A stretch of DNA of 64,000 nt from an uncultured Ruminococcus sp. (GTDB taxonomy: Bacteria > Bacillota > Clostridia > Oscillospirales > CAG-272): assembly GCA_964622425.1 (NCBI GenBank), contig CAZUQN010000003.1:1166-65165 (forward strand), read 5' to 3'. Below, in pieces: positions 13,321 through 57,710 of this stretch (its first letter is position 1; every line of letters starts with the position of its first letter). A program made the translations under genes and the position numbers. The notes beneath the pieces are model-generated. The model saw nothing but the letters and a program-made list of their open reading frames with translations. It was not told the origin of the DNA and ran no database searches.

Positions 13321-14322
13321 ATGAATTCCAATATCAGACCTGAAAATATGACTCGTATTACAACCAAGGAGCTTGCAGATGCTTTTATCGATGAGCAGGT
13401 AAGACGTGTGCGCGAGCAGGTAGGCGACAAGAAGGTGCTCCTTGCCCTCTCGGGCGGAGTTGACAGCTCTGTTGTTGCCGCCCTCCTCATCAAGGCAATC
13501 GGTAAGCAGCTTGTTTCCGTGCACGTTAACCACGGCCTTATGCGTAAGGGCGAGAGCGAGCAGGTAATCGAAATATTCGAGAAGGGCCTTAATGCCAATC
13601 TCGTTTACGTTGACGCAAGCGAGCGTTTCTTAAATCTCCTTGCAGGTGTCAGCGAGCCCGAGAAGAAGAGAAAGATCATCGGCGCTGAGTTTATCAACGT
13701 TTTCGCTGAGGAAGCGTCCAAGCTCGAGGGCATCGAATTCCTTGCTCAGGGCACTATCTATCCCGACATTCTCGAGAGCATCAAGCAGGCAGAGGGCAAG
13801 AAGGCGGTCAAGTCGCACCACAACGTAGGCGGACTCCCCGAAGACCTTCAGTTTGAGCTTGTTGAGCCCCTGAAGCTTCTCTTCAAGGACGAGGTAAGAG
13901 TCGTTGGTGAGGCTCTCGGCCTTCCCCACGGTATGGTCTACCGTCAGCCCTTCCCCGGCCCCGGCCTCGGTGTAAGATGCCTCGGCGCGATCACCCGCGA
14001 CAGACTCGAGGCACTCAGAGAGGCAGACGCTATCCTCCGCGATGAGTTTGACAAGTGCGGTCTCGCCGAGAAGGTATGGCAGTACTTCATCGCTATTCCC
14101 GACATCAAGAGCGTTGGCGTTAAGGACGAGAGCCGCTACGAGGGTTGGCCCGCAATTATCCGCGCTGTCAATACCACCGACGCAATGAGCGCAACCATCG
14201 AGGAGATTCCCTACGCAGTGCTTCATAAGATCACCGCAAGAATCACCAATGAGGTTGAGGGAATCAATAGAGTTCTCTACGATCTTACACCTAAGCCTAC
14301 GGGAACAATCGAATGGGAGTGA
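13321..14322 (+). CDS. guaA: GMP synthase ATP-pyrophosphatase subunit (no glutamine amidotransferase domain)
   Basis: 333 aa. The SGGVDSS PP-loop lies about 50 aa from the N-terminus, and the C-terminus TGTIEWE matches the GuaA dimerisation end. Only 37 nt separate it from fhs, so no GATase domain can be encoded upstream. Confidence 0.85.
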   Translation: MNSNIRPENMTRITTKELADAFIDEQVRRVREQVGDKKVLLALSGGVDSSVVAALLIKAIGKQLVSVHVNHGLMRKGESEQVIEIFEKGLNANLVYVDASERFLNLLAGVSEPEKKRKIIGAEFINVFAEEASKLEGIEFLAQGTIYPDILESIKQAEGKKAVKSHHNVGGLPEDLQFELVEPLKLLFKDEVRVVGEALGLPHGMVYRQPFPGPGLGVRCLGAITRDRLEALREADAILRDEFDKCGLAEKVWQYFIAIPDIKSVGVKDESRYEGWPAIIRAVNTTDAMSATIEEIPYAVLHKITARITNEVEGINRVLYDLTPKPTGTIEWE

Positions 14323-14511
14323 CTTTCGCGCCGCGAAAGTCAACTATGATTGCCTGACGGCAAGTTATGATACGCTTCGCGTAAGTTTAAATGCTCGCTA
14401 CGGCTCGCATAAAGTTAGATAGGCAATCATTTCATAACGAGTGCATAGCACTCTCATAACTTTCACGCAGTGAAATCATAACGTTCGCTTTGTGAACTCA
14501 TAACTTTAAAC
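14321..14511. repeat. mini-hairpin array with constant word TCATAAC (family copy 1 of 3)
   Basis: Starts on the guaA stop codon. Example units: gagtgcATAgcactc TCATAAC tttcacGCAgtgaaa TCATAAC gttcgcTTTgtgaac TCATAAC. The left half carries the reverse word GTTATGA. Confidence 0.7.
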
Positions 14512-18508: not shown

Positions 18509-18905
18509 TGGGGCCAACGCCCATTAACTAAGCTTGTCAAGGACAAGCTTAACTTCACTCGGGCTTCGCCCGAACTTCACTCGCACTCCGCGCGAACTTC
18601 ACCAAATACAGTTCATGCAAAGAAGCAAATTACACAAATAACAGGCTGAAAAGCAAACAAAAGTGCTCATTATGGCGTTGTGTTCTCTAGAAACGCAACG
18701 CCAACTCTATTCGCCTCTCGGCGGGCTCTATTGCTAAAGCAGTTATATTGCTCCGCAGTTCTATTCACTTCGCGAGTTTGAAGTTAGAGGCGAATAGAAT
18801 ACAACTGTGAGGCAAAGCCGAACAATATAACTTCCCGACAGGGAAATATCACTTTTGCGTAGCAAAAATATCATGCTGTCATAGACAGCATATCACTAAA
18901 AGCTA
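18509..18905. repeat. long mini-hairpin array with words ACTTCAC and ATATCAC
   Basis: Example units: aagcttgtcAAGgacaagctt AACTTCAC tcgggcTTCgcccga ACTTCAC tcgcacTCCgcgcga ACTTCAC ... ttcccGACAgggaa ATATCAC ttttgcGTAgcaaaa ATATCA tgctgtcATAgacagca TATCAC. Confidence 0.65.
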
Positions 18906-38050: not shown

Positions 38051-38136
38051 AAAATGATGTTTGCCTGTGGCAAATGGTGTTGGGCCTTGCCCAATGATGA
38101 CGCTTACGCTAATGATGTGTGGCTATGCCACATTTT
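38051..38136. repeat. mini-hairpin array with word (A)ATGATG inside the BMC operon
   Basis: AATGATG tttgccTGTggcaaa TGGTG ttgggcCTTgcccaa TGATG ... AATGATG tgtggcTATgccaca. Confidence 0.6.
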
Positions 38137-45541: not shown

Positions 45542-45600
45542 TTTCGTTTCTCCTTGTGATATATATTAATTATTTTTTGTTTTCGCTGATGGTTATTTAG

Positions 45601-45740
45601 GTTGAGTTATGAGAGTGCTATCGCGCTCAACGTTATGGTATGATTGCCCATCAAACCTTAAACTTGGCGCCAGCCAATCATAACTACCCGAAGGGTATTT
45701 TAACTCATAACTTGCCCCACAGGGCAATCATAACTGCGAA
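45601..45740. repeat. mini-hairpin array with word TCATAAC (family copy 2 of 3)
   Basis: ttggcGCCAgccaa TCATAAC tacccGAAgggta ttttaac TCATAAC ttgcccCACAgggcaa TCATAAC. The left half carries GTTATGA. Shares the core tatgattgccc with the other two copies. Confidence 0.7.
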
Positions 45741-45743
45741 GCG

Positions 45744-47940: not shown

Positions 47941-48189
47941 TGCCTTCCCTTGTGAGGCAACGAAGTGGCGTTTCGGTAGTGAATTGCATTGATAATGCAA
48001 GAGCCGAAACGTGACCGAGCCGAAGCGAGACAGGGGGACCATTTATGGTGGATGAGTAGTTACAGCGCATGCTTATTTCAACGTAGACATTTTAACTCCT
48101 CATCCGTCATACTCAATCAAGATTTCGTATGCCACCTTCTCCAACAGGAGAAGGCTCTCTTGATTATCAACTTTCAATTTTCAACTTTC

Positions 48190-48295
48190 AATTATCCACT
48201 CACGTTCGTGAGTGATGATATACAACGCGAAGCGTTGATGATATACGTTCACTCCTCGTGAGCGATGATATGCTCGACTTCGTCGAGATACTTGG
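48190..48295. repeat. mini-hairpin array with word ATGATATA
   Basis: cactcacGTTCgtgagtg ATGATATA caacgcGAAgcgttg ATGATATA cgttcacTCCTCgtgagcg ATGATAT gctcgacTTCgtcgag. Confidence 0.65.
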
Positions 48296-50992: not shown

Positions 50993-50994
50993 AA

Positions 50995-51150
50995 CGCCGC
51001 CCTCGGCGTTAACGTTCACGCAGTGAACATATCGCACCGTCGCGAGCGACGGTATATCGCTGTCTAACCTTTCAGACAATATCGCATCTGCCAAAGGCAG
51101 ATATATCGCTTTAATCCGCCCACGTGTGGGCGGATTAAACATTTTCGTCC
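50995..51150. repeat. mini-hairpin array with word ATATCGC
   Basis: gttcacGCAgtgaac ATATCGC accgtcgCGAGcgacggt ATATCGC tgtctAACCTTTCagaca ATATCGC atctgccAAAggcagat ATATCGC, followed by ttaatccgcccACGTgtgggcggattaa. Confidence 0.7.
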
Positions 51151-51400
51151 AAGCCCACGGGTGGGACTAGGGGGACCGCAACGGGGTTCCTCGATGCGAG
51201 CGAAGTCGAGCATCAGGGGTTCGCGTGCTGGCGGTGGATGAGTAGTTACAAAGCGAAGCGGTGGAGGAGTCATTCTGCGTACAAAGTCTTGCAACTACTC
51301 ATCCGTCATTTGCTCCGCAAAATCCACCTTCCCTCACAAGGGAAGGCCGAGAAAAAAGAGCCTCGCATTTCTGCGAGGCTCTAAAACTTTGTATTCAACA

Positions 51401-51508: not shown

Positions 51509-51692
51509 TCGTAGATGCTACGCACTTCGAATTTTGCACTTGCGGCTCTGCCGCACCGACCGAGCCCGCAGGCGAGACAAGGGGGACCATTTATGGTGGA
51601 TGAGGTGTACTTCGTACAAAACCTTACAACTACTCATCCGTCATTCTCAAACAAGTTTTCGAACGACACCTTCCCTCACAAGGGAAGGCCGA

Positions 51693-51723
51693 GAAAAAAG
51701 AGCCTCGCATTTCTGCGAGGCTC
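51693..51723 (-). terminator. rho-independent terminator of the giant gene (duplicated at 51352-51381)
   Basis: On the minus strand: GAGCCTCGCagaaatGCGAGGCTC followed by TTTTTT. Confidence 0.7.
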
Positions 51724-51758
51724 AAAGCTTTTTAAAAGCCGAAATTGTTTTTGCGTTT

Positions 51759-54700
51759 TTACGGGGTTACCATTCCCACTTCGTTATCCGTGAGCCACTG
51801 GTCGGTCGCGATTGTCAAGTCATCCTTTTTAATCGTGATTGAACCGCCAACGCTAACCTCAACATCTACTGTTGTAATAACAGAATCAAGATTACCATAT
51901 CTCCAAGACCACTTCTTGTCGAACGTAACAGTATACTGACCTATTGCAACGTCAGTAACAGTAAGAGCTACGCCGTCAACAACCGCAACGGTGAAGGTCT
52001 TGCCTTCTGCGAAGGTACCTGCAACACCGGTAAAGGTAAGGATAAAGCTGTCACTCTGTCCGCTTGTAATCTTAATTTCGAGATCAGCCGAGCGAGGAAG
52101 GAAGAGTGCGTAGTAGGTTGCGGAAATGTAGAGATTACCTTCCTGCTCATCACCATTATCATCCTCATAAGTGAACTGGGTCTTGGTGGGAATCAAGTGG
52201 CTATACTCTCCAATGGTCACTGGGTCAACATTAGTATCAATAGGAGTCGTGCACTCTGCATCCTTGAACCAACCGGCAAAATAATATGTCTCAGACTCAT
52301 AAGGAATAGAGCCCACAGGTGTATCATCAGAACCGGAATTAATGTTTTCACGCGTCATTGACAAACCAACGTCGCTTCCATCAATATCGTCACAAACGAT
52401 CTCGTAGATAAATGTCGACTCAGATTTCTGATAGTAGAAAATAATCACGTTACGAGATTCGTCAATATAGAGTGTAAGCGATCTCTGTGTAGACTGATCT
52501 ACAAGGTCACAACCCTTGTTGTTAACGATCTCCATATGCTTCTGCTTGTCAAGATCAACGGTGACAAGGTGTCCATGCTGAACTCCAGACGCGTCTGCTG
52601 CAACCTCATAAGAGTAATATTCCTCACCGCTATCAACATCCACGTACTTAACAGTATATCCAACAGTAACGCGATCATAGTACAGATTTATCTCTAAACC
52701 GTATTCAGTAATCGTATAACCGAATTTTTCTTCATCCATGTTGATGTGCTCAAGATCGCCCTGTGGAATAACTACACTCTCAACTACACCCGAAGTCTCA
52801 TCTTGCCTACGTGTCTCAGCATCTGCCTTTGAGAAACTGTATCCGGTAATGTCAGTCAAAACAGTTCCAAACACTATGTTTCCATCGCCGCCCTGAATAA
52901 TCTCAAAGGTGCCCGACTGATAAGAATAAACCGAATATGTTCCATCGACGTTCTGTATCAAATGATTTACAACCCAAGGAGCTGTTATGGGTGCATCAGC
53001 TTCGTTCTTGGTGTAATAGAAGGTAATAACGTTATTTGTCGCTTGATCGGTAGATGAAAGAATCAAGGACTTTGAATAAGCGTCAACTGTATAACCCGTA
53101 ATAGGTACAAATAGCTCAGTGACCGCGGCTTTTCTCGTTTTGCCCTCATAGGTTGCGGGATAGTTTGGATCGGTAGAGTCAAATACTTCTCGTGTTTCGT
53201 TATCAACGTATTTTACCCAATAACTTACCTCTTCAACCTCGTCATAAACGAAGTTGTACTCATTAACAAGAATGTTTCCATCTCCATCCTTTTCAAACTT
53301 CATCTGAACAGTATGGCTTCCTACCTGAGGGAAATAGCCCTCTTGGTAATCAGCATAAAGATCAGCTCCTGCCAAAGCACGGAAGGTTTTGTTCTGACCG
53401 GCAAGCGCGCTTCCCAGCATGGAATTACCGATCTGCACGTATACTGGCTCGTCATTTTCATCAACAACCAGCTGACCGTTCTCATCCTTTTGTTGAGTTA
53501 CAAAATTAATCTTGTAGTTAACCGTCTGCTCGGAAATCCACTTAGCATAGATAACCATATCCTGAGTGATTGGGAAGTTGAAGAGAAATGCTTTTTCTTC
53601 ATTTGTTTCGGGATCTACGTAGAACCAACCATTGAAAGTATAGTTAAGGTCCTTCTTGTATGCAGACTGCGTATAATCAGGCTCTACAGCATAGTATCTA
53701 TGTCCAACATACTGATCACCGTAGTTATCCTCACTAAACTGTGTGGTAAATGTAGCATCATCATACACTTTGACATGTCTAGTGACAGGGGTCCAAATAG
53801 CATAAAGGTTAAGCTCGCCGTCAGGAAGCGTGTCCGTCTCCCAGTCTACCATTGTATACTCACTTTGATACTCAGTAGTGTACCAACCTGCAAAAACGTA
53901 TGCTCCGACCTCAAGCTGACTAGGATATGGTACATTATTAATGTCAAAGTTACCATATGTTTCACTACTTTTCAGCACGGCAGCGAAGTCGCCCAATGAA
54001 GCACCGTATTTTAGAGGATTAGACTCCCCTGCTTGGGGTATGGTAATCAGGCTATTTCCGGCATTGAATATGTTAACCTTGAGATTTGAACTGTTTCTGT
54101 CGTAGAAGTACACATATCGGGTTACATTCTCAACGTCCAACACATTTATGCCTTCTGTTTTTTCAGGGTTAGTCTCTGTTCCTGTGACGGTATGAATATT
54201 CATACCGTGGATACTCTTTATTCCTTCTTTTTCTAGCTGAGCAAGAGCATCAATTACTCCGTCTCCATCGGAATCCGTGGCATCTAATGCGATAAATTGC
54301 ATATGTGTAGAATCTGCATCGTACCACTTTCCATCGAATTCCTTTCTTCCGTTTCCGTTTTCATCGTAAGGAATTTCGCCACTTTCTATATCAAAGCTCT
54401 CAAACATATAGTAGAGAATATATGGAACAATATTGCTCGAATACTGAGCGACCGTCCTGATTCCTGCAGAATAGCAAAGTTCAGTAACCATCGTTATGTG
54501 TTTAACGTAACGATCTATCGCTTTACTTGTATCCGTACCAGTACTATCATATTTCCAATATGTAAAATATGCTCCTTCATCATTTTGTTGAAGCCCAAGC
54601 GTATTTAGCTCAATGAAATACGGAACATATGCAGTAATATCCTGACCATATTTGGCCTGAAGTATTCTTATTGTTTGATAATAATCTTCCGGCTTAGCTT

Positions 54701-57700
54701 CAGCTTTTTGTTCGTCAGATAGGTTGTTATATACTTCCGAATAAGTAGTATCATTGGTATGCTGATGTTCTGGCTTCATACAGAGATAGCCATAACAATC
54801 TATGGTGTGTTCATGGGTGCATAAGCAATAATCTGTATGCTCGTGCTCCGCTTTTCCGCAACCATAGCAACCTTCGGCATCTGTATGCGTGTGCTCATAA
54901 CCAACAGTACAGACTTCACTGTTACATCCACCGGTGTGGTCGTGGTCAGGGGCATTTTCAGGACAAGTATCTGCCTCAATAATGACTGGGTTGGTTGAAT
55001 AATCCACATCAGGATCATAAGCATCATAATAGTACCATTGACCATTGATATAGATGGTGGGAACATCCATATATATGGTACCTGATATAATTCCCGTGCG
55101 GCTACTATACGGCACTGCTAAATCGTTCAATACATATACATATCCATTTTGAAGATTTTGAGGCGGAGCTTCCTTTTGAACAGCCGTAGCAGCTTCCGCG
55201 GCCTTTTCAGATGCAGTATCGTTAACAATGGTATTAAGTATGCCCGAAATAAGATCTCCTCCCCAAGAGAAGTTCTTCTTAATGTCAGCCTCAACTAAAG
55301 GGGAAGCGGCAGAACCAATTGAAGTTGCCATATCTGAATCAACGGAATAACAACCTGCATCGTGCACGTGCACGCCACAACATTCTGGTCCATGTATGTG
55401 CTCAGTTTTACTACAATTCTTGCATCCTGCAACATGTGTGTGTTCTTCAATGGAGCAAGAGCCCGAAGTATTGCAAGCGGAGGTATGCACGTGTTTACAA
55501 TAGAAGGGGTTGTACTCACAAGTACCGTCACCATGAAAATGTTCGTCAAGTTTGCAACCCGACTTAAGCGTATCCGCAACAAAAGTGATCTGATAGTAAC
55601 GACGATTAAAGAACACGTTAACCGTGGAGGAACCATCACCCTTAATAACAACGCCATCAGGAGAATCCTTAACCATTTCCTCATACGTCAACGATGTATT
55701 AAGCGTTGTATACTGATAATCCTCATCCCCGGTTACTACATCATCAATTGGAACTGGATTATCCCCATCATACTTTATGTACGTTCCTGATGTAGCGGTC
55801 TTCGGTACTGTATGCCAGATACTGTAGTTACCGTCATTGGGGTTTTCGAGCCAGTAAACCATATTATAATTTACTATCTCTTCACTCCAATTTGCCTTGT
55901 AAGTAACATTACAAATTATCTTGACTTTGTTTTCTTTACCTGCTGTTAAGTATTCATATCCGGCAGCGGGATCATCACAATCGACTACCTCCCACCCAAC
56001 AAATCCGTAACCTGCACAAATTGCATCGTTAATACCGACCTCATATCCATACGGAACATAAAGGTTCTCCTGTCCATATGCACCGTCTTCAACCATATCG
56101 AAGAGAACGGTGTAATACTCTCTATCGTAACGAACTTCAATGACTGTGCTACCGTCCGCAGCGATCTCAGTAGGTTCATAATAGAGGTGGCGGAAACCGG
56201 TAATATCAATCTCACAACCACTAACAGGGGAATCAACCGTACCGGACCCTTCGGTAACCGGTTGAGCCTCATATGCTACATAATTGTCATCATATACGTT
56301 CTTAATAAAGTGGTATATTTTGTATTTAGCCTTACCGGGATAATAATAAACGTTTACCGTATAGTCTGCGGTATATCCGGCGTCAATTGAAACAGTCGTA
56401 AGAGAATCATCCGAATCCGGATTCTGTGAAAAATCATAAGGATTAGAGGGTTCCGTCATGCTCGGGTAATATCCGAGAACAGAAGGAATATTAACCGTAT
56501 ACGCCTCATAATCGGTCTTTAAGGTACGGATATCGGGATAAGTTGCTTGAACCTGTGTTCCGTCAGGGCGTACCTTAATGAAGTTGACGGTTAGAGTGAT
56601 ACGCTCGGTAGACGTATCTCCATCCGCATAAGCCTTTGCGCTGTGTACAATGTATTCCTCGTTAGCAGTGGTAATATTCTCGTACTCAGGCTCCATGGGT
56701 TTAGGAGCGTAAACCGTCTTAATAGTGATGGGCAGAGATCTGTACTCAGTCTCACCATCATATGCCACTGCGCGAATCTTTGTCTTGTTATTTTCATCAA
56801 GGACATTCTTTACGAGAGCATAGGTGACGTAACATACATCGGTCACCTTGTCGTATATTCTAGCCCAAGTGTTATTTTCTGCATCAACAAGGATTTCCCA
56901 TCCCCATTCAACGTCACCGGTAAGTCTCTCCGTCTTTGCAGCTTCAAGAAGCATTTTACCGTCTTCATAAAGCGTGATTATGTCAGTTTCCTGTCCACGA
57001 TAGGTTATGGAAACAGGAGAAACGTACTCCTCGGTGATAATGAGATCGTAATAAGGATCGATGTATCTATACTGATCGTATATCATCGGCCAATCCACAT
57101 TGGTCGCATATACGTAAGTATCATCTTTATGAATTCGCTTAACGATTACTTCCTCGGGGAAGTTCTTAGTAGATACCTCGGGCTCAACGTCCTCATCTCC
57201 GTAGCCATACTCCTCGAATATAGCACTTTCTGAAGGCTCAGCAGGTCTATACGGTGCTAAACCTGTTTCTGTTTCACCAAGATTCCAGACTGCAGTGTAT
57301 TCCTTGCCAAGCTCCATTTCATCGACTGATAATCCTCCGTCTATCAGGAGCTTATCTGCATCAATATACCTATAGTCATCATAGCCTGCAGGCCAATCGA
57401 GGTTAGTTGTGTAAACAAGGTTGAAATCTCTTACACTGTTACGGATAACCGTTACACTCTCAGGAAGAAGTTCTTCGTTAATGACCTCTCCAAGTGCATC
57501 ATACGTATTAATAAAATTAAATCTCGCATAAGGCCAGAAGGTATCCGATACCCACTTCGCCGAATAGAGCTTACCGACCTCCATATCGGAGACGGAGAGT
57601 CCGGTTTCCTCATCGGTGCTATCGAGCGCTATCGCGGGGACCACGCCGATAGGCAATATATAGAACACTGTCACAAGCGCCAGAAGGAGCGAAAGTATTC

Positions 57701-57710
57701 TTTTTTTCAT
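51759..57710 (-). CDS. giant secreted multi-domain surface/adhesin-like protein (no recognisable anchor)
   Basis: 1983 aa, SD AGGAGG, Sec signal MKKRILSLLLALVTVFYILPIGVVPAIA. Two ~100-aa N-terminal repeats. F.GW-type Listeria-Bacteroides repeats (YVFAGWYT, YTFNGWFYVDPETNEE, YYFAGWFKD). MucBP-like Y.VKYVD modules. Two Cys/HxH-rich blocks. No LPXTG and no C-terminal TM seen. Confidence 0.8.
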   Translation of the reverse strand: MKKRILSLLLALVTVFYILPIGVVPAIALDSTDEETGLSVSDMEVGKLYSAKWVSDTFWPYARFNFINTYDALGEVINEELLPESVTVIRNSVRDFNLVYTTNLDWPAGYDDYRYIDADKLLIDGGLSVDEMELGKEYTAVWNLGETETGLAPYRPAEPSESAIFEEYGYGDEDVEPEVSTKNFPEEVIVKRIHKDDTYVYATNVDWPMIYDQYRYIDPYYDLIITEEYVSPVSITYRGQETDIITLYEDGKMLLEAAKTERLTGDVEWGWEILVDAENNTWARIYDKVTDVCYVTYALVKNVLDENNKTKIRAVAYDGETEYRSLPITIKTVYAPKPMEPEYENITTANEEYIVHSAKAYADGDTSTERITLTVNFIKVRPDGTQVQATYPDIRTLKTDYEAYTVNIPSVLGYYPSMTEPSNPYDFSQNPDSDDSLTTVSIDAGYTADYTVNVYYYPGKAKYKIYHFIKNVYDDNYVAYEAQPVTEGSGTVDSPVSGCEIDITGFRHLYYEPTEIAADGSTVIEVRYDREYYTVLFDMVEDGAYGQENLYVPYGYEVGINDAICAGYGFVGWEVVDCDDPAAGYEYLTAGKENKVKIICNVTYKANWSEEIVNYNMVYWLENPNDGNYSIWHTVPKTATSGTYIKYDGDNPVPIDDVVTGDEDYQYTTLNTSLTYEEMVKDSPDGVVIKGDGSSTVNVFFNRRYYQITFVADTLKSGCKLDEHFHGDGTCEYNPFYCKHVHTSACNTSGSCSIEEHTHVAGCKNCSKTEHIHGPECCGVHVHDAGCYSVDSDMATSIGSAASPLVEADIKKNFSWGGDLISGILNTIVNDTASEKAAEAATAVQKEAPPQNLQNGYVYVLNDLAVPYSSRTGIISGTIYMDVPTIYINGQWYYYDAYDPDVDYSTNPVIIEADTCPENAPDHDHTGGCNSEVCTVGYEHTHTDAEGCYGCGKAEHEHTDYCLCTHEHTIDCYGYLCMKPEHQHTNDTTYSEVYNNLSDEQKAEAKPEDYYQTIRILQAKYGQDITAYVPYFIELNTLGLQQNDEGAYFTYWKYDSTGTDTSKAIDRYVKHITMVTELCYSAGIRTVAQYSSNIVPYILYYMFESFDIESGEIPYDENGNGRKEFDGKWYDADSTHMQFIALDATDSDGDGVIDALAQLEKEGIKSIHGMNIHTVTGTETNPEKTEGINVLDVENVTRYVYFYDRNSSNLKVNIFNAGNSLITIPQAGESNPLKYGASLGDFAAVLKSSETYGNFDINNVPYPSQLEVGAYVFAGWYTTEYQSEYTMVDWETDTLPDGELNLYAIWTPVTRHVKVYDDATFTTQFSEDNYGDQYVGHRYYAVEPDYTQSAYKKDLNYTFNGWFYVDPETNEEKAFLFNFPITQDMVIYAKWISEQTVNYKINFVTQQKDENGQLVVDENDEPVYVQIGNSMLGSALAGQNKTFRALAGADLYADYQEGYFPQVGSHTVQMKFEKDGDGNILVNEYNFVYDEVEEVSYWVKYVDNETREVFDSTDPNYPATYEGKTRKAAVTELFVPITGYTVDAYSKSLILSSTDQATNNVITFYYTKNEADAPITAPWVVNHLIQNVDGTYSVYSYQSGTFEIIQGGDGNIVFGTVLTDITGYSFSKADAETRRQDETSGVVESVVIPQGDLEHINMDEEKFGYTITEYGLEINLYYDRVTVGYTVKYVDVDSGEEYYSYEVAADASGVQHGHLVTVDLDKQKHMEIVNNKGCDLVDQSTQRSLTLYIDESRNVIIFYYQKSESTFIYEIVCDDIDGSDVGLSMTRENINSGSDDTPVGSIPYESETYYFAGWFKDAECTTPIDTNVDPVTIGEYSHLIPTKTQFTYEDDNGDEQEGNLYISATYYALFLPRSADLEIKITSGQSDSFILTFTGVAGTFAEGKTFTVAVVDGVALTVTDVAIGQYTVTFDKKWSWRYGNLDSVITTVDVEVSVGGSITIKKDDLTIATDQWLTDNEVGMVTP

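What the first reader, a model, noticed from the sequence alone, without database searches (positions are those of the whole stretch)
48190..48295. Further hairpin-word arrays with words ATGATATA (48190-48295) and ATATCGC (50995-51150)
These are two more arrays of 4-5 perfect mini-hairpins, with 5-8 bp stems and loops of about 3-8 nt (GTTC, GAA, TTC, GCA, AAA and longer). Each hairpin is followed by the local fixed word. One array starts 3 nt after the thioredoxin stop codon. Including the others, I count at least seven arrays in 64 kb using at least five different words. The density and the consistent grammar suggest a genome-wide process rather than isolated terminators.
Basis: seen in the sequence. 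Interest (0 to 1): 0.55.

Follow-up and report, generated by a model that had tools for sequence, protein, structure and literature searches.

The report
Gut-1-type hairpin-and-word repeat arrays
The two arrays are real and belong to a widespread, poorly understood family of intergenic repeats in gut Clostridia and their phages, related to the orphan Rfam "Gut-1" motif; they are not isolated terminators, and nothing points to an array-building process.

Summary
Both arrays exist as described. Short, almost always perfect hairpins tile exactly between copies of a 7-8 nt word (ATGATAT on +; ATATCGC on +, which is GCGATAT on -). Dinucleotide shuffles of the window give no such arrays.

They are not a new kind of object. 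A sister array in the same window (18820-18898, -) reaches the Rfam threshold for Gut-1 RNA (RF01706), whose consensus is three variable hairpins separated by GUGAAAU.

A genome-wide pattern scan shows that Gut-1 is one arm of a stereotyped composite repeat of about 150-190 nt: four words W, a core, three inverted words W', then a closing helix and GTTG plus a hairpin. That end abuts the 3' end of a tRNA or protein gene.

Copies within one genome can be nearly identical. They carry no promoter or ORF. They also occur in a phage.

Words switch together at every position between subfamilies (GTGAAAT, GTGAAGT, GCGATAT, GTTATGA) while some hairpins stay homologous. Loops are C(GNA)G or C(GNNA)G on the W' strand of both arms, the signature of DNA mini-hairpins.

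The two arrays of the finding are single-arm word variants that fail the Rfam threshold. One is conserved in an 89% relative and absent from 95-97% relatives.

Verdict: a new variant of a known, function-unknown repeat family. Function and means of spread are inferred, not shown.

The parts
48197..48290 (+). Array 1: four mini-hairpins (48197-48214, 48223-48237, 48246-48264, 48273-48287) separated by the word ATGATAT(A/G). This is a single arm; the W strand is +.
   Evidence: All four hairpins are conserved in L010 (89% M48 relative) with loop changes and one C>T that creates a G.T wobble. The array is absent from L001, L004 and L006. Rfam Gut-1 gives no hit. A similar ATGATAT arm followed by a terminator occurs in viral contig L441.
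51014..51109 (-). Array 2: four hairpins, each followed on the + strand by ATATCGC. On the - strand the word reads GCGATAT (W). On the thioredoxin sense strand this is a W'-type arm with G..A-type loops (gca, cgag, aaa).
   Evidence: Weak Gut-1 match at 51074-51142(-): 26.0 bits against a threshold of 50. Composite elements with the same W/W' pair (GCGATAT/ATATCGC) occur in L305 and L366.
50993..51010 (+). Hairpin AACGCCG ccct CGGCGTT directly after the thioredoxin stop codon, followed by AAC. It is the gene-proximal hairpin and has no word before it.
   Evidence: The same position is held by the 'GTTG + hairpin' end of composite elements that abut a gene's 3' end.
51110..51139 (+). Terminal 13-bp hairpin TTTAATCCGCCCA cgtg TGGGCGGATTAAA followed by CATTTT. 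It is terminator-like on + and closes array 2.
   Evidence: terminator-like consensus match.
18820..18898 (-). Sister array with word GUGAUAU that reaches the Rfam Gut-1 (RF01706) gathering score.
   Evidence: 50.4 bits against a threshold of 50, E = 5.7e-07 for the whole window.
18529..18600 (-). Sister array with ACTTCAC x3 on + (W = GTGAAGT on -). One A.C mismatch on + is a G.U on -.
14320..14504 (-). Composite element of the GTTATGA/TCATAAC subfamily. On the - strand it reads [W hp]x4, core AATGATTGCC, then W' arm, then TTGCC gtca GGCAA TCATA GTTG plus a hairpin that overlaps the stop codon of the convergent gene 13321-14322.
45598..45743 (+). Composite element of the GTTATGA/TCATAAC subfamily between ackA and rpiR. 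The core TATGATTGCCC pairs with the terminal GGGCAATCATA. The end abuts the rpiR stop codon.
   Evidence: Present in the window, L004 and L006; replaced by unrelated sequence in L001, L005 and L010.
63789..63915 (+). Composite element of the GTTATGA/TCATAAC subfamily, ending TTGCCCC tt GGGGCAA TCATA GTTG. Its W arm is nearly identical to the arm at the ackA/rpiR locus of L004 and L006.
38053..38132 (+). Single arm with word (A)ATGATG x4, ending in TGTGGC tat GCCACA + T6. It is antisense to both flanking genes.

Best explanation
The two arrays are single-arm, word-variant members of the repeat superfamily that includes the Rfam Gut-1 motif. This is a family of non-coding, promoter-less, modular palindromic repeats that sit in spacers at the 3' ends of genes in uncultured gut Clostridia and their phages.

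Shown:
- A unit is a 7-nt word plus a short self-complementary segment that fills the whole gap between words.
- Full elements are stereotyped: [W hairpin]x3-4, core, [W' hairpin]x2-3, a closing helix, then GTTG plus a hairpin or terminator that abuts a tRNA or CDS 3' end.
- They are dispersed in several copies per genome.
- They are inherited vertically, and are lost or replaced between close relatives.
- Within one element all words are the same; between subfamilies all of them change together.

Inferred:
- The elements persist and spread as DNA repeats, like REP/BIME or MITE elements. Their hairpins are selected or corrected on single-stranded DNA. The evidence is that loops are C(GNA)G or C(GNNA)G on the W' strand of both arms, and stems are perfect Watson-Crick.
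- Because they are palindromic, they fold on whichever strand is transcribed. Placed just after stop codons, they would act as stacks of stem-loops in 3' UTRs or intercistronic RNA, serving as barriers to 3' exonucleases or partial terminators.
- The word is the functional, sequence-specific part. It is read either by a trans-acting factor or by pairing with the inverted words and partial words of the same element.
For: - Rfam Gut-1 hits a sister array in the window. Its consensus is hairpins separated by GUGAAAU.
33 of the first 80 loci hold true hairpin arrays, almost all from gut Clostridia MAGs.
- Gut-1 scores 50-88 bits on arms of these elements, usually the GTTG-proximal arm.
- 22 oriented composite elements show 4 W in 17/22 and 3 W' in 19/22. 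They end in GTTG, and in about 12 a terminator follows directly; 7 are next to a tRNA 3' end.
- Of 215 inter-word spacers, 196 are perfect hairpins and 194 fill the spacer exactly.
- Loop bias: 121/215 are C-GNA-G or C-GNNA-G on the W' strand against 16 on the W strand. The third position of GNNA loops is not purine-biased. These match the GCGNAGC/GCGNNAGC DNA mini-hairpins of PMC13037366.
- The L104 and L161 copy pairs are nearly identical, with sharply defined ends and no shared upstream promoter.
- Array 1 is orthologous in L010. Presence or absence and replacement among 85-97% relatives is seen.
- GCGATAT composites are homologous to GTGAAAT composites, with the word switched at every position.
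- Phage L366 carries arrays right after the terminase, portal and major head genes, in sense orientation.
- The same architecture holds in the window for the TCATAAC composites.
Against: - Neither array of the finding reaches the Gut-1 threshold (26 bits, and no hit).
- Neither has the CAAC/GTTG-X module or a second arm.
- No mobilising gene, TIR or TSD was found.
- No expression data exist, so the RNA-level role is a guess by analogy with REP elements.
- The hairpin and loop statistics pool homologous hairpins, so the counts are not all independent.
- Only about 0.9 Mb of sequence (window plus loci) had been fetched when I searched for paralogous copies of the two arrays' stems.
- IMG/VR and MAG binning errors could affect the taxonomic spread (Akkermansia, Bacteroidaceae).
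Confidence: 0.6

Rival explanations
1. The arrays are structured RNAs in the sense Rfam assigns to Gut-1: an sRNA or a cis-acting 3'-UTR element. The hairpins are RNA helices and the single-stranded words are binding or cleavage sites for an RNA-binding protein or RNase, or they pair W:W' to build a multi-junction fold.
For: - Rfam/Weinberg 2010 classify Gut-1 as a likely RNA on the basis of covariation.
- A long-range closing helix (partial W + X with X' + partial W') covaries across subfamilies. It appears in the MFE structure, z = -5.4.
- A terminator is part of the repeated unit.
- The phage arrays lie in sense orientation inside an operon.
- Nested W:W' word pairs in mixed-word elements show 3 G.U against 1 A.C on the T-orientation strand.
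Against: - Homology between copies starts exactly at the first word, so no promoter belongs to the unit.
- Loop types are dyad-symmetric. Any single transcript carries UNC loops in one arm and GNA loops in the other.
- Triloops outnumber tetraloops 118:60, and GNNA loops show no GNRA preference.
- Stems are 91% perfect Watson-Crick with very few G.U pairs.
- Orientation relative to the upstream gene flips between close relatives (window versus L005).
Confidence: 0.25
2. The arrays are built by an active, CRISPR-like or transposition-like process. Each event adds a new palindromic insert and duplicates the local word, as a repeat or target-site duplication. This would explain identical words and unique stems.
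For: - Words are identical within an array but differ between arrays.
- The stems of the two arrays have no paralogue in the sequence held at that check.
- Unit number differs between relatives at the thioredoxin site: 4 units in the window, 2 in L006.
Against: - The 4+3 architecture is fixed in most composite elements.
- Hairpins at homologous positions are conserved across species and word subfamilies and in the L010 orthologue.
- Identical dispersed copies exist.
- No conserved neighbouring enzyme gene was found; the flanking genes examined are housekeeping.
- The spacers are self-complementary, so they are not captured foreign DNA.
Confidence: 0.07
3. The words are arm-type binding sites of a site-specific recombinase, or subterminal binding sites of a transposase. 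The composite elements would then be att-site or transposon-end remnants next to tRNA genes.
For: - 7 of 22 composites abut a tRNA 3' end, and CCAG precedes the terminator even where no tRNA is found.
- The words are direct and inverted repeats spaced about 18-25 bp apart.
- A 23S_rRNA_IVP gene is a recurrent neighbour.
Against: - No integrase or transposase gene turned up among the flanking ORFs I scanned with Pfam or PHROGs.
- The window has about 10 arrays and no tRNA gene.
- Arrays follow ordinary CDS stop codons and occur inside a phage structural operon.
Confidence: 0.05
4. The arrays are ordinary intrinsic terminators, or chance clusters of hairpins in GC-moderate spacers.
For: The last hairpin of array 2 is terminator-like. 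The arrays lie downstream of genes.
Against: - 0 arrays in 40 shuffles against 3 under the same strict rule (5 with one mismatch allowed).
- Internal hairpins have no U-tract.
- Identical 7-nt linkers are not a terminator property.
- There is family-wide homology.
Confidence: 0.02

Closest known systems
Gut-1 RNA motif (Rfam RF01706; Weinberg et al. 2010, PMC2864571)
   Same: It has the same grammar: consecutive variable hairpins separated by a fixed 7-nt linker (consensus GUGAAAU). It comes from gut microbes and its function is unknown. A sister array in this window passes its threshold.
   Different: The two arrays use other words (AUGAUAU, GCGAUAU) and lack the CAAYGAAAU + X-hairpin start. 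They score 0-26 bits against a threshold of 50. The Rfam model covers only one arm of what is in fact a composite repeat of about 150-190 nt.
REP / BIME / REPIN elements with RAYT transposases (PMC3116915, PMC6006769, PMC3733652)
   Same: Both are high-copy extragenic palindromes with a short conserved tag next to the hairpin foot. Both are arranged in clusters with inverted orientation, sit at 3' ends of genes, and are species- or lineage-specific. REP elements act as mRNA stabilisers or terminators.
   Different: The tag is not GTAG/GTGG/CGTC at 0-2 nt from the foot. Stems are short (4-8 bp), perfect and much more variable. Units sit in the same orientation within an arm. No RAYT gene was seen.
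BOX elements of Streptococcus pneumoniae (boxA-(boxB)n-boxC) and other modular MITE-like repeats (from my own knowledge)
   Same: These are modular, non-coding dispersed repeats with a variable number of internal units. They are located in spacers and can fold into stable structures.
   Different: BOX modules are about 45-60 nt and conserved in sequence. Here the repeated module is a 7-nt word plus a hairpin of partly free sequence.
DNA mini-hairpins d(GCGNAGC)/d(GCGNNAGC) (PMC13037366)
   Same: 50 of the 215 hairpins contain exactly these motifs on the W' strand. In all, 121 of 215 have C(GNA)G or C(GNNA)G loops.
   Different: The mini-hairpins are a biophysical motif, not a genetic element. 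Their relevance here is an inference about which nucleic acid and which strand is under constraint.
CRISPR arrays
   Same: Both have a short constant sequence alternating with variable segments of similar length. The constant part is array-specific.
   Different: The constant part is 7-8 nt rather than 23-55 nt. The variable segments are self-complementary and are inherited or homologous. There are no cas genes and no leader.

Membership tests
Rfam Gut-1 RNA (RF01706) | Score at or above the curated gathering threshold (50 bits) of the family covariance model | tested here: not met
   Array 2: 26.0 bits, E = 0.047 in a 3.6-kb search. Array 1: no Gut-1 match at E <= 10, even when searched alone. 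The sister array 18820-18898(-) scores 50.4 bits, so it meets the threshold.
Rfam Gut-1 RNA (RF01706) | Three or more consecutive hairpins of variable sequence separated by a fixed 7-nt linker of type GUGAAAU | tested here: met
   The grammar is met with variant words: AUGAUAU (+ strand, array 1) and GCGAUAU (- strand, array 2). Each differs from GUGAAAU at 2 of 7 positions.
Rfam Gut-1 RNA (RF01706) | 5' module CAAYGAAAU followed by the terminal X hairpin (model positions 1-27) | tested here: not met
   This module is absent from both arrays. It is present in the GTGAAAT and GTGAAGT composites, and as ...TCATA GTTG in the window's TCATAAC composites.
Composite Gut-1-type repeat (as defined here from 22 copies) | Two arms with mutually reverse-complementary words (W x4, W' x3), a core, and a closing helix | tested here: not met
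   Both arrays are single arms. Composites with array 2's word pair GCGATAT/ATATCGC exist in L305 and L366. For ATGATAT only a single arm (L441) was found.
Composite Gut-1-type repeat (as defined here from 22 copies) | Spacers between words are filled entirely by a perfect hairpin, with G..A loops on the W' strand | tested here: inconclusive
   Array 2 fits: its loops on the W' (+) strand are gca, cgag, aaa and aacctttc. Array 1 is mixed: its loops on the W (+) strand are gttc, gaa, tcctc and ttc.
REP/BIME (RAYT-associated) | GTAG/GTGG (or CGTC) tetranucleotide 0-2 nt 5' of the hairpin foot | tested here: not met
   The words are RYGAWRU. GTGA, where present, lies 3 nt from the foot. The definition is taken from PMC6006769.
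REP/BIME (RAYT-associated) | A cognate RAYT (Y1 HUH transposase) gene, typically flanked by REPs | not testable with these tools
   Only 64 kb of this genome is available. No such gene was seen among the flanking genes examined.
REP/BIME (RAYT-associated) | Extragenic location, many copies per genome, clustered | tested here: met
   There are about 10 arrays in 64 kb, all in spacers.
CRISPR array | Direct repeats of about 23-55 nt with unique non-palindromic spacers, and cas genes or a leader nearby | tested here: not met
   The repeats are 7-8 nt and the spacers are self-complementary. No cas genes were seen among the neighbouring genes examined.
Intrinsic (Rho-independent) terminator | GC-rich hairpin immediately followed by a U-tract | tested here: not met
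   Only 51110-51139 matches the consensus. The internal hairpins are followed by the word, not by a T-run.
MITE | Terminal inverted repeats and target-site duplication flanking a dispersed non-coding copy | tested here: inconclusive
   The dispersed identical copies have sharp ends (L104, L161), but no TIR or TSD could be recognised.

The most novel reading that the evidence does not exclude
Gut-1-type elements are a previously unrecognised class of 'programmable-word' ssDNA hairpin repeats shared by gut Clostridia and their phages. A structure-specific enzyme, for example an HUH/Y1-like nuclease, would recognise sequence-free mini-hairpins. It would read the 7-nt word by base pairing with the inverted and partial words beside the X hairpin, as IS200/IS605 and RAYT enzymes read their cleavage sites through guide sequences. 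Under this model the word can switch at all 7-9 positions of an element without any change in the protein. That would create the many coexisting word subfamilies seen in this window.
Probability: 0.15. Interest if true: 0.8.

Novelty: new variant of a known kind. Interest (0 to 1): 0.5.

Why it matters
[quoted passage not shown] This analysis changes that picture in several ways.

- Gut-1 is placed in identifiable organisms: uncultured gut and rumen Clostridia, plus at least one phage.
- The Rfam model is shown to cover only one arm of a larger composite repeat.
- Word variants that the model misses are shown to be abundant, with about 10 arrays in this 64-kb window.
- Two properties constrain any mechanism: all words of an element switch together, and the loop signature is dyad-symmetric and DNA-mini-hairpin-like.

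If the elements act at gene 3' ends, they would affect mRNA stability and termination for many genes in abundant gut bacteria. If they are mobilised as ssDNA, they would be a REP/RAYT-like system in Firmicutes with a different recognition logic. In practice, annotation pipelines should expect these arrays in Clostridia MAGs and should not call them terminators or CRISPR-like arrays.

Tried and rejected
- Exact-protein look-ups of the window's M48 peptidase, thioredoxin and P0001 found nothing on record. The source contig itself could not be fetched.
- The metagenome scan with the M48 protein returned only 59-78% relatives on short contigs. None carried arrays, so they did not help with orthologous sites.
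- I looked for an element-associated gene between paired arrays in L087 and L104. Only housekeeping genes were there: Era, RecO, an Mrr-like nuclease, a phosphatase and a methyltransferase.
- I tested rung-by-rung W:W' covariation. Words are too homogeneous to decide: 507 of 511 positions are Watson-Crick and only 4 elements have mixed words.
- The promoter scan around the arrays gave nothing convincing, and no promoter is shared by duplicated copies.
- CRISPR, integron attC, iteron and plain-terminator readings were rejected on unit size, self-complementary spacers and lack of U-tracts.
- UNCG or GNRA RNA-tetraloop explanations for the loops were rejected. Triloops dominate and the third position of GNNA loops is unbiased.
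- Viral-contig scans for the three words were mostly noise: only 5 true arrays among 356 stretches.
- Literature searches found nothing on Gut-1 beyond Weinberg 2010, and nothing on such arrays in Clostridia.
- One paper search failed on term length.

Full report
**Observation**

Both arrays are in the sequence as described.

Array 1 (48197-48290, + strand) has four hairpins: CACTCAC gttc GTGAGTG, CAACGC gaa GCGTTG, CGTTCAC tcctc GTGAGCG (one G.T wobble) and CTCGAC ttc GTCGAG. They are separated by ATGATAT(A/G).

Array 2 starts with a hairpin directly after the thioredoxin stop codon (50993-51010). Four hairpins follow, each followed by ATATCGC (51014-51109). A 13-bp hairpin that matches a terminator consensus closes the array (51110-51139).

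The hairpins fill the space between words exactly.

Under a strict rule (at least 3 perfect hairpins joined by linkers sharing a 6-mer) the window holds 3 arrays, or 5 with one mismatch allowed. Forty dinucleotide-preserving shuffles gave none. RNAfold z-scores are -6.0 for array 2 and -2.9 for array 1.

In the whole window I count about ten arrays with at least six words. All lie in spacers. Several begin at or overlap a stop codon.

**Link to a known family**

An Rfam scan of the window gave a single hit above threshold. The sister array at 18820-18898 on the - strand is Gut-1 RNA (RF01706), at 50.4 bits against a threshold of 50. The Gut-1 consensus is three variable hairpins separated by GUGAAAU, which is the same grammar.

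Array 2 gives only a weak Gut-1 match (26 bits). Array 1 gives none.

[quoted passage not shown] It classes the motif as a likely non-coding RNA of unknown function.

**Organism and orthologous sites**

The flanking genes are RpiR, an S26-like peptidase, an M48 peptidase, thioredoxin and a 1983-aa Flg_new repeat protein. The M48 protein has graded relatives in animal-gut metagenomes. The only names given to them are "Clostridia bacterium" MAGs. Loci from relatives at 97, 95, 89 and 85% M48 identity are syntenic.

*Array 1.* It is present with all four hairpins in the 89% relative L010. The differences are in loops, in hairpin 1, and one C>T that creates the wobble. It is cleanly absent from the 95-97% relatives.

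*Thioredoxin-downstream site.* This site is occupied differently in each relative:
- Window: ATATCGC x4.
- L006: a two-unit ATATCAC/GTATCGC array with a partly shared first stem.
- L001 and L004: a GTGAAGT array enclosed by a long-range stem.
- L005: a GCGATAT x4 array, the same word as the window in the opposite orientation and with different stems.

The arrays are therefore heritable, but they are lost and replaced quickly. Word identity does not track locus or strand.

**The full element**

Of the first 80 loci, 33 hold true hairpin arrays. Nearly all come from gut Clostridia, Eubacteriales, Oscillospiraceae, Acutalibacteraceae or Christensenellaceae MAGs, with a few from Akkermansia and Bacteroidaceae.

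Many loci show a + match followed 50-100 nt later by a - match. Twenty-two copies could be oriented, and they share one architecture:

5'-[W hairpin]x3 W - (partial W + X) - hairpin - [W' hairpin]x2 W' - X loop X' - partial W' - GTTG - hairpin/terminator

- There are four W in 17/22 copies and three W' in 19/22. W' is the reverse complement of W.
- The GTTG end abuts the 3' end of a convergent gene. Seven copies are next to a tRNA CCA end.
- Rfam's Gut-1 scores 50-88 bits on arms of these elements, usually the GTTG-proximal arm.
- The segment 'partial W + X' can pair with 'X' + partial W'', closing the proximal arm. This pairing appears in the MFE structure of L068. It covaries across subfamilies: GAAATAAATCC/GGATTTATTTC, TAAGTTTGCC/GGCAAACTTA and TATGATTGCCC/GGGCAATCATA.
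- The window's three TCATAAC elements (14320-14504, 45598-43, 63789-63915) have exactly this architecture with W = GTTATGA. Their GTTG ends sit against stop codons.

**Repeat behaviour**

Two copies in one MAG are identical apart from a few substitutions. In L104 the identity spans about 225 nt; in L161 it spans about 190 nt, including the terminator. In L161 the homology starts exactly at the first word. The unit therefore carries no promoter and no ORF.

L067 has two tandem, diverged copies. One arm of the window's 63789 element is nearly identical to the arm at a different locus (ackA/rpiR) in L004 and L006. Genes lying between paired copies are housekeeping genes.

These are dispersed repeats, not independently evolved terminators. 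They are also not arrays with de novo stems.

The stems of the two arrays of the finding have no paralogue in the sequence I held at that check. That sequence does not include the rest of this genome.

**The word**

Viral-contig scans were mostly noise, but they yielded composite elements with W = GCGATAT and W' = ATATCGC. These are L305 and L366, from the same JGI samples as relatives L007 and L006. They also yielded a single ATGATAT arm followed by a terminator, L441.

Alignment A1 shows that the GCGATAT composites share hairpins with the GTGAAAT composites. Examples are AAATCCC ttgc GGGATTT and GCCTGCGGGCG(A/T)GAG. In contrast, every W, every W' and both partial words are switched.

Within elements, words are almost perfectly homogeneous: 507 of 511 nested W:W' positions are Watson-Crick. 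The word is therefore the part that evolves in concert and is presumably read specifically. The hairpins are partly conserved structural fillers. How the concerted switch happens is unexplained.

Rfam's model does not reach threshold on these variants.

**Which nucleic acid**

I analysed 215 hairpins lying between word pairs.
- 196 are perfect Watson-Crick and 194 fill the spacer exactly.
- 118 have triloops and 60 have tetraloops.
- In the orientation where the word reads GTGAART, loops are TTC (35), TGC (24), TAC (11) and TTGC/TAAC/TTAC (27). Their complements number 5, 2, 0 and 0.
- On the W' strand, therefore, 121 of 215 hairpins are C(GNA)G or C(GNNA)G. Fifty of them match GCGNAGC or GCGNNAGC exactly.
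- The third position of GNNA loops is not purine-biased.

These are the unusually stable DNA mini-hairpin motifs (PMC13037366), not the RNA GNRA or UNCG preference.

The bias is dyad-symmetric. In a composite element the two arms carry opposite loop types on any one strand. That is not what a single structured transcript would be selected for. I take this as inference, not proof, that the constraint or correction acts on single-stranded DNA of the W' strand.

A loop inversion between the two L161 copies (TTAC versus GTAA) and single unpaired substitutions in the L104 copies show the kinds of change that occur.

**Context and likely role**

The elements sit immediately after stop codons or tRNA 3' ends.

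L366 is a phage contig encoding terminase, portal, prohead protease and major head protein. In it, arrays follow the stop codons of the terminase, portal and major head genes in sense orientation, and two of the three are followed shortly by the next RBS. This is the position REP/BIME elements take in enterobacterial operons.

Palindromes fold on either transcribed strand. The most economical functional guess is therefore a stack of stem-loops in 3' UTRs or intercistronic RNA, acting as exonuclease barriers or partial terminators. This is an analogy and was not tested.

In six MAGs a PF05635 (23S_rRNA_IVP, Avd-like) gene with its own TGnTATAAT promoter follows the distal arm. Its meaning is unknown, and no such gene is in the window.

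**Comparison with known systems**

- *Gut-1:* the arrays share its grammar but fail its threshold and lack its 5' module.
- *REP/BIME:* they resemble these elements in location, copy number and inverted clustering. They fail the GTAG/GTGG-tag criterion, and no RAYT gene is known for them.
- *CRISPR arrays, attC sites and plain terminators:* they are none of these.

**Verdict**

The arrays are new word variants of a known, function-unknown repeat family. The composite architecture, the concerted word switching, the DNA-type loop signature and the presence in a phage are, as far as the searchable literature shows, not described.

Noticed in passing
window 48032-48162, 51225-51384, 51580-51726: A second, unrelated repeat family of about 130-150 nt fills the same spacers. 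Its sequence runs AGGGGGACC..GGTGGATGAG..ACTCATCCGTCAT..CACCTTCCCTCACAAGGGAAGG, often followed by the terminator GAGCCTCGCAtttcTGCGAGGCTC. Tandem copies occur in the L004 thioredoxin spacer.
   Followed up: partly
L004 13608-13856 (ackA/rpiR spacer): An extra segment of about 45-50 nt (..CTCGGGGTTCCCCGAAGCGAGCGTAGTCGAGCTTTTGGGGGTCGCG) lies inside the loop of the terminal hairpin of the TCATAAC composite. It resembles window 51184-51226. This looks like one repeat nested in another.
   Followed up: no
L366 5008-5100, 7057-7150, 10041-10195: A phage contig (terminase, portal, prohead protease, major head protein) carries three GCGATAT-word arrays. Each lies directly after the stop codon of the terminase, portal or major head gene, with the W strand as the mRNA sense strand.
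   Followed up: partly
L057 237-575, L068 4814-5170, L094 6795-7126, L117 1046-1390, L146 1487-1825, L151 1271-1612: A PF05635 (23S rRNA intervening-sequence / Avd-like four-helix-bundle) gene with its own extended -10 promoter lies 16-70 nt beyond the distal arm of GTGAAAT/GTGAAGT composites in several MAGs. It is frameshifted in L094. There is none in the window.
   Followed up: partly
window 48165-48195: Short CAACTTTCAA-type direct repeats (ATCAACTTTCAATTTTCAACTTTCAATT) lie just upstream of array 1. They are conserved in all relatives whether or not the array is present.
   Followed up: no
L161 (two copies, terminator region): The terminator hairpins of two otherwise identical element copies differ by an inverted loop (TTAC versus GTAA). 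This is the signature of a flip across a palindrome.
   Followed up: no
window 51759-57710 (-): The Flg_new (Listeria-Bacteroides repeat) protein is 1983 aa in the window. Its orthologue varies from 1748 to 1991 aa among 89-97% relatives, and the spacer next to it differs in each.
   Followed up: no
window 38053-38132 (+): The AATGATG-word arm ends in a hairpin plus T6 on the strand antisense to both flanking microcompartment-operon genes. This looks like a possible antisense terminator or small transcript.
   Followed up: no
L099, L122, L161 (first copy), L117, L057: junction after the element's terminator: The tetranucleotide CCAG precedes the terminator end of the composite element even where ARAGORN finds no tRNA. 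It could be a tRNA 3'-end remnant or part of the element or its target.
   Followed up: no
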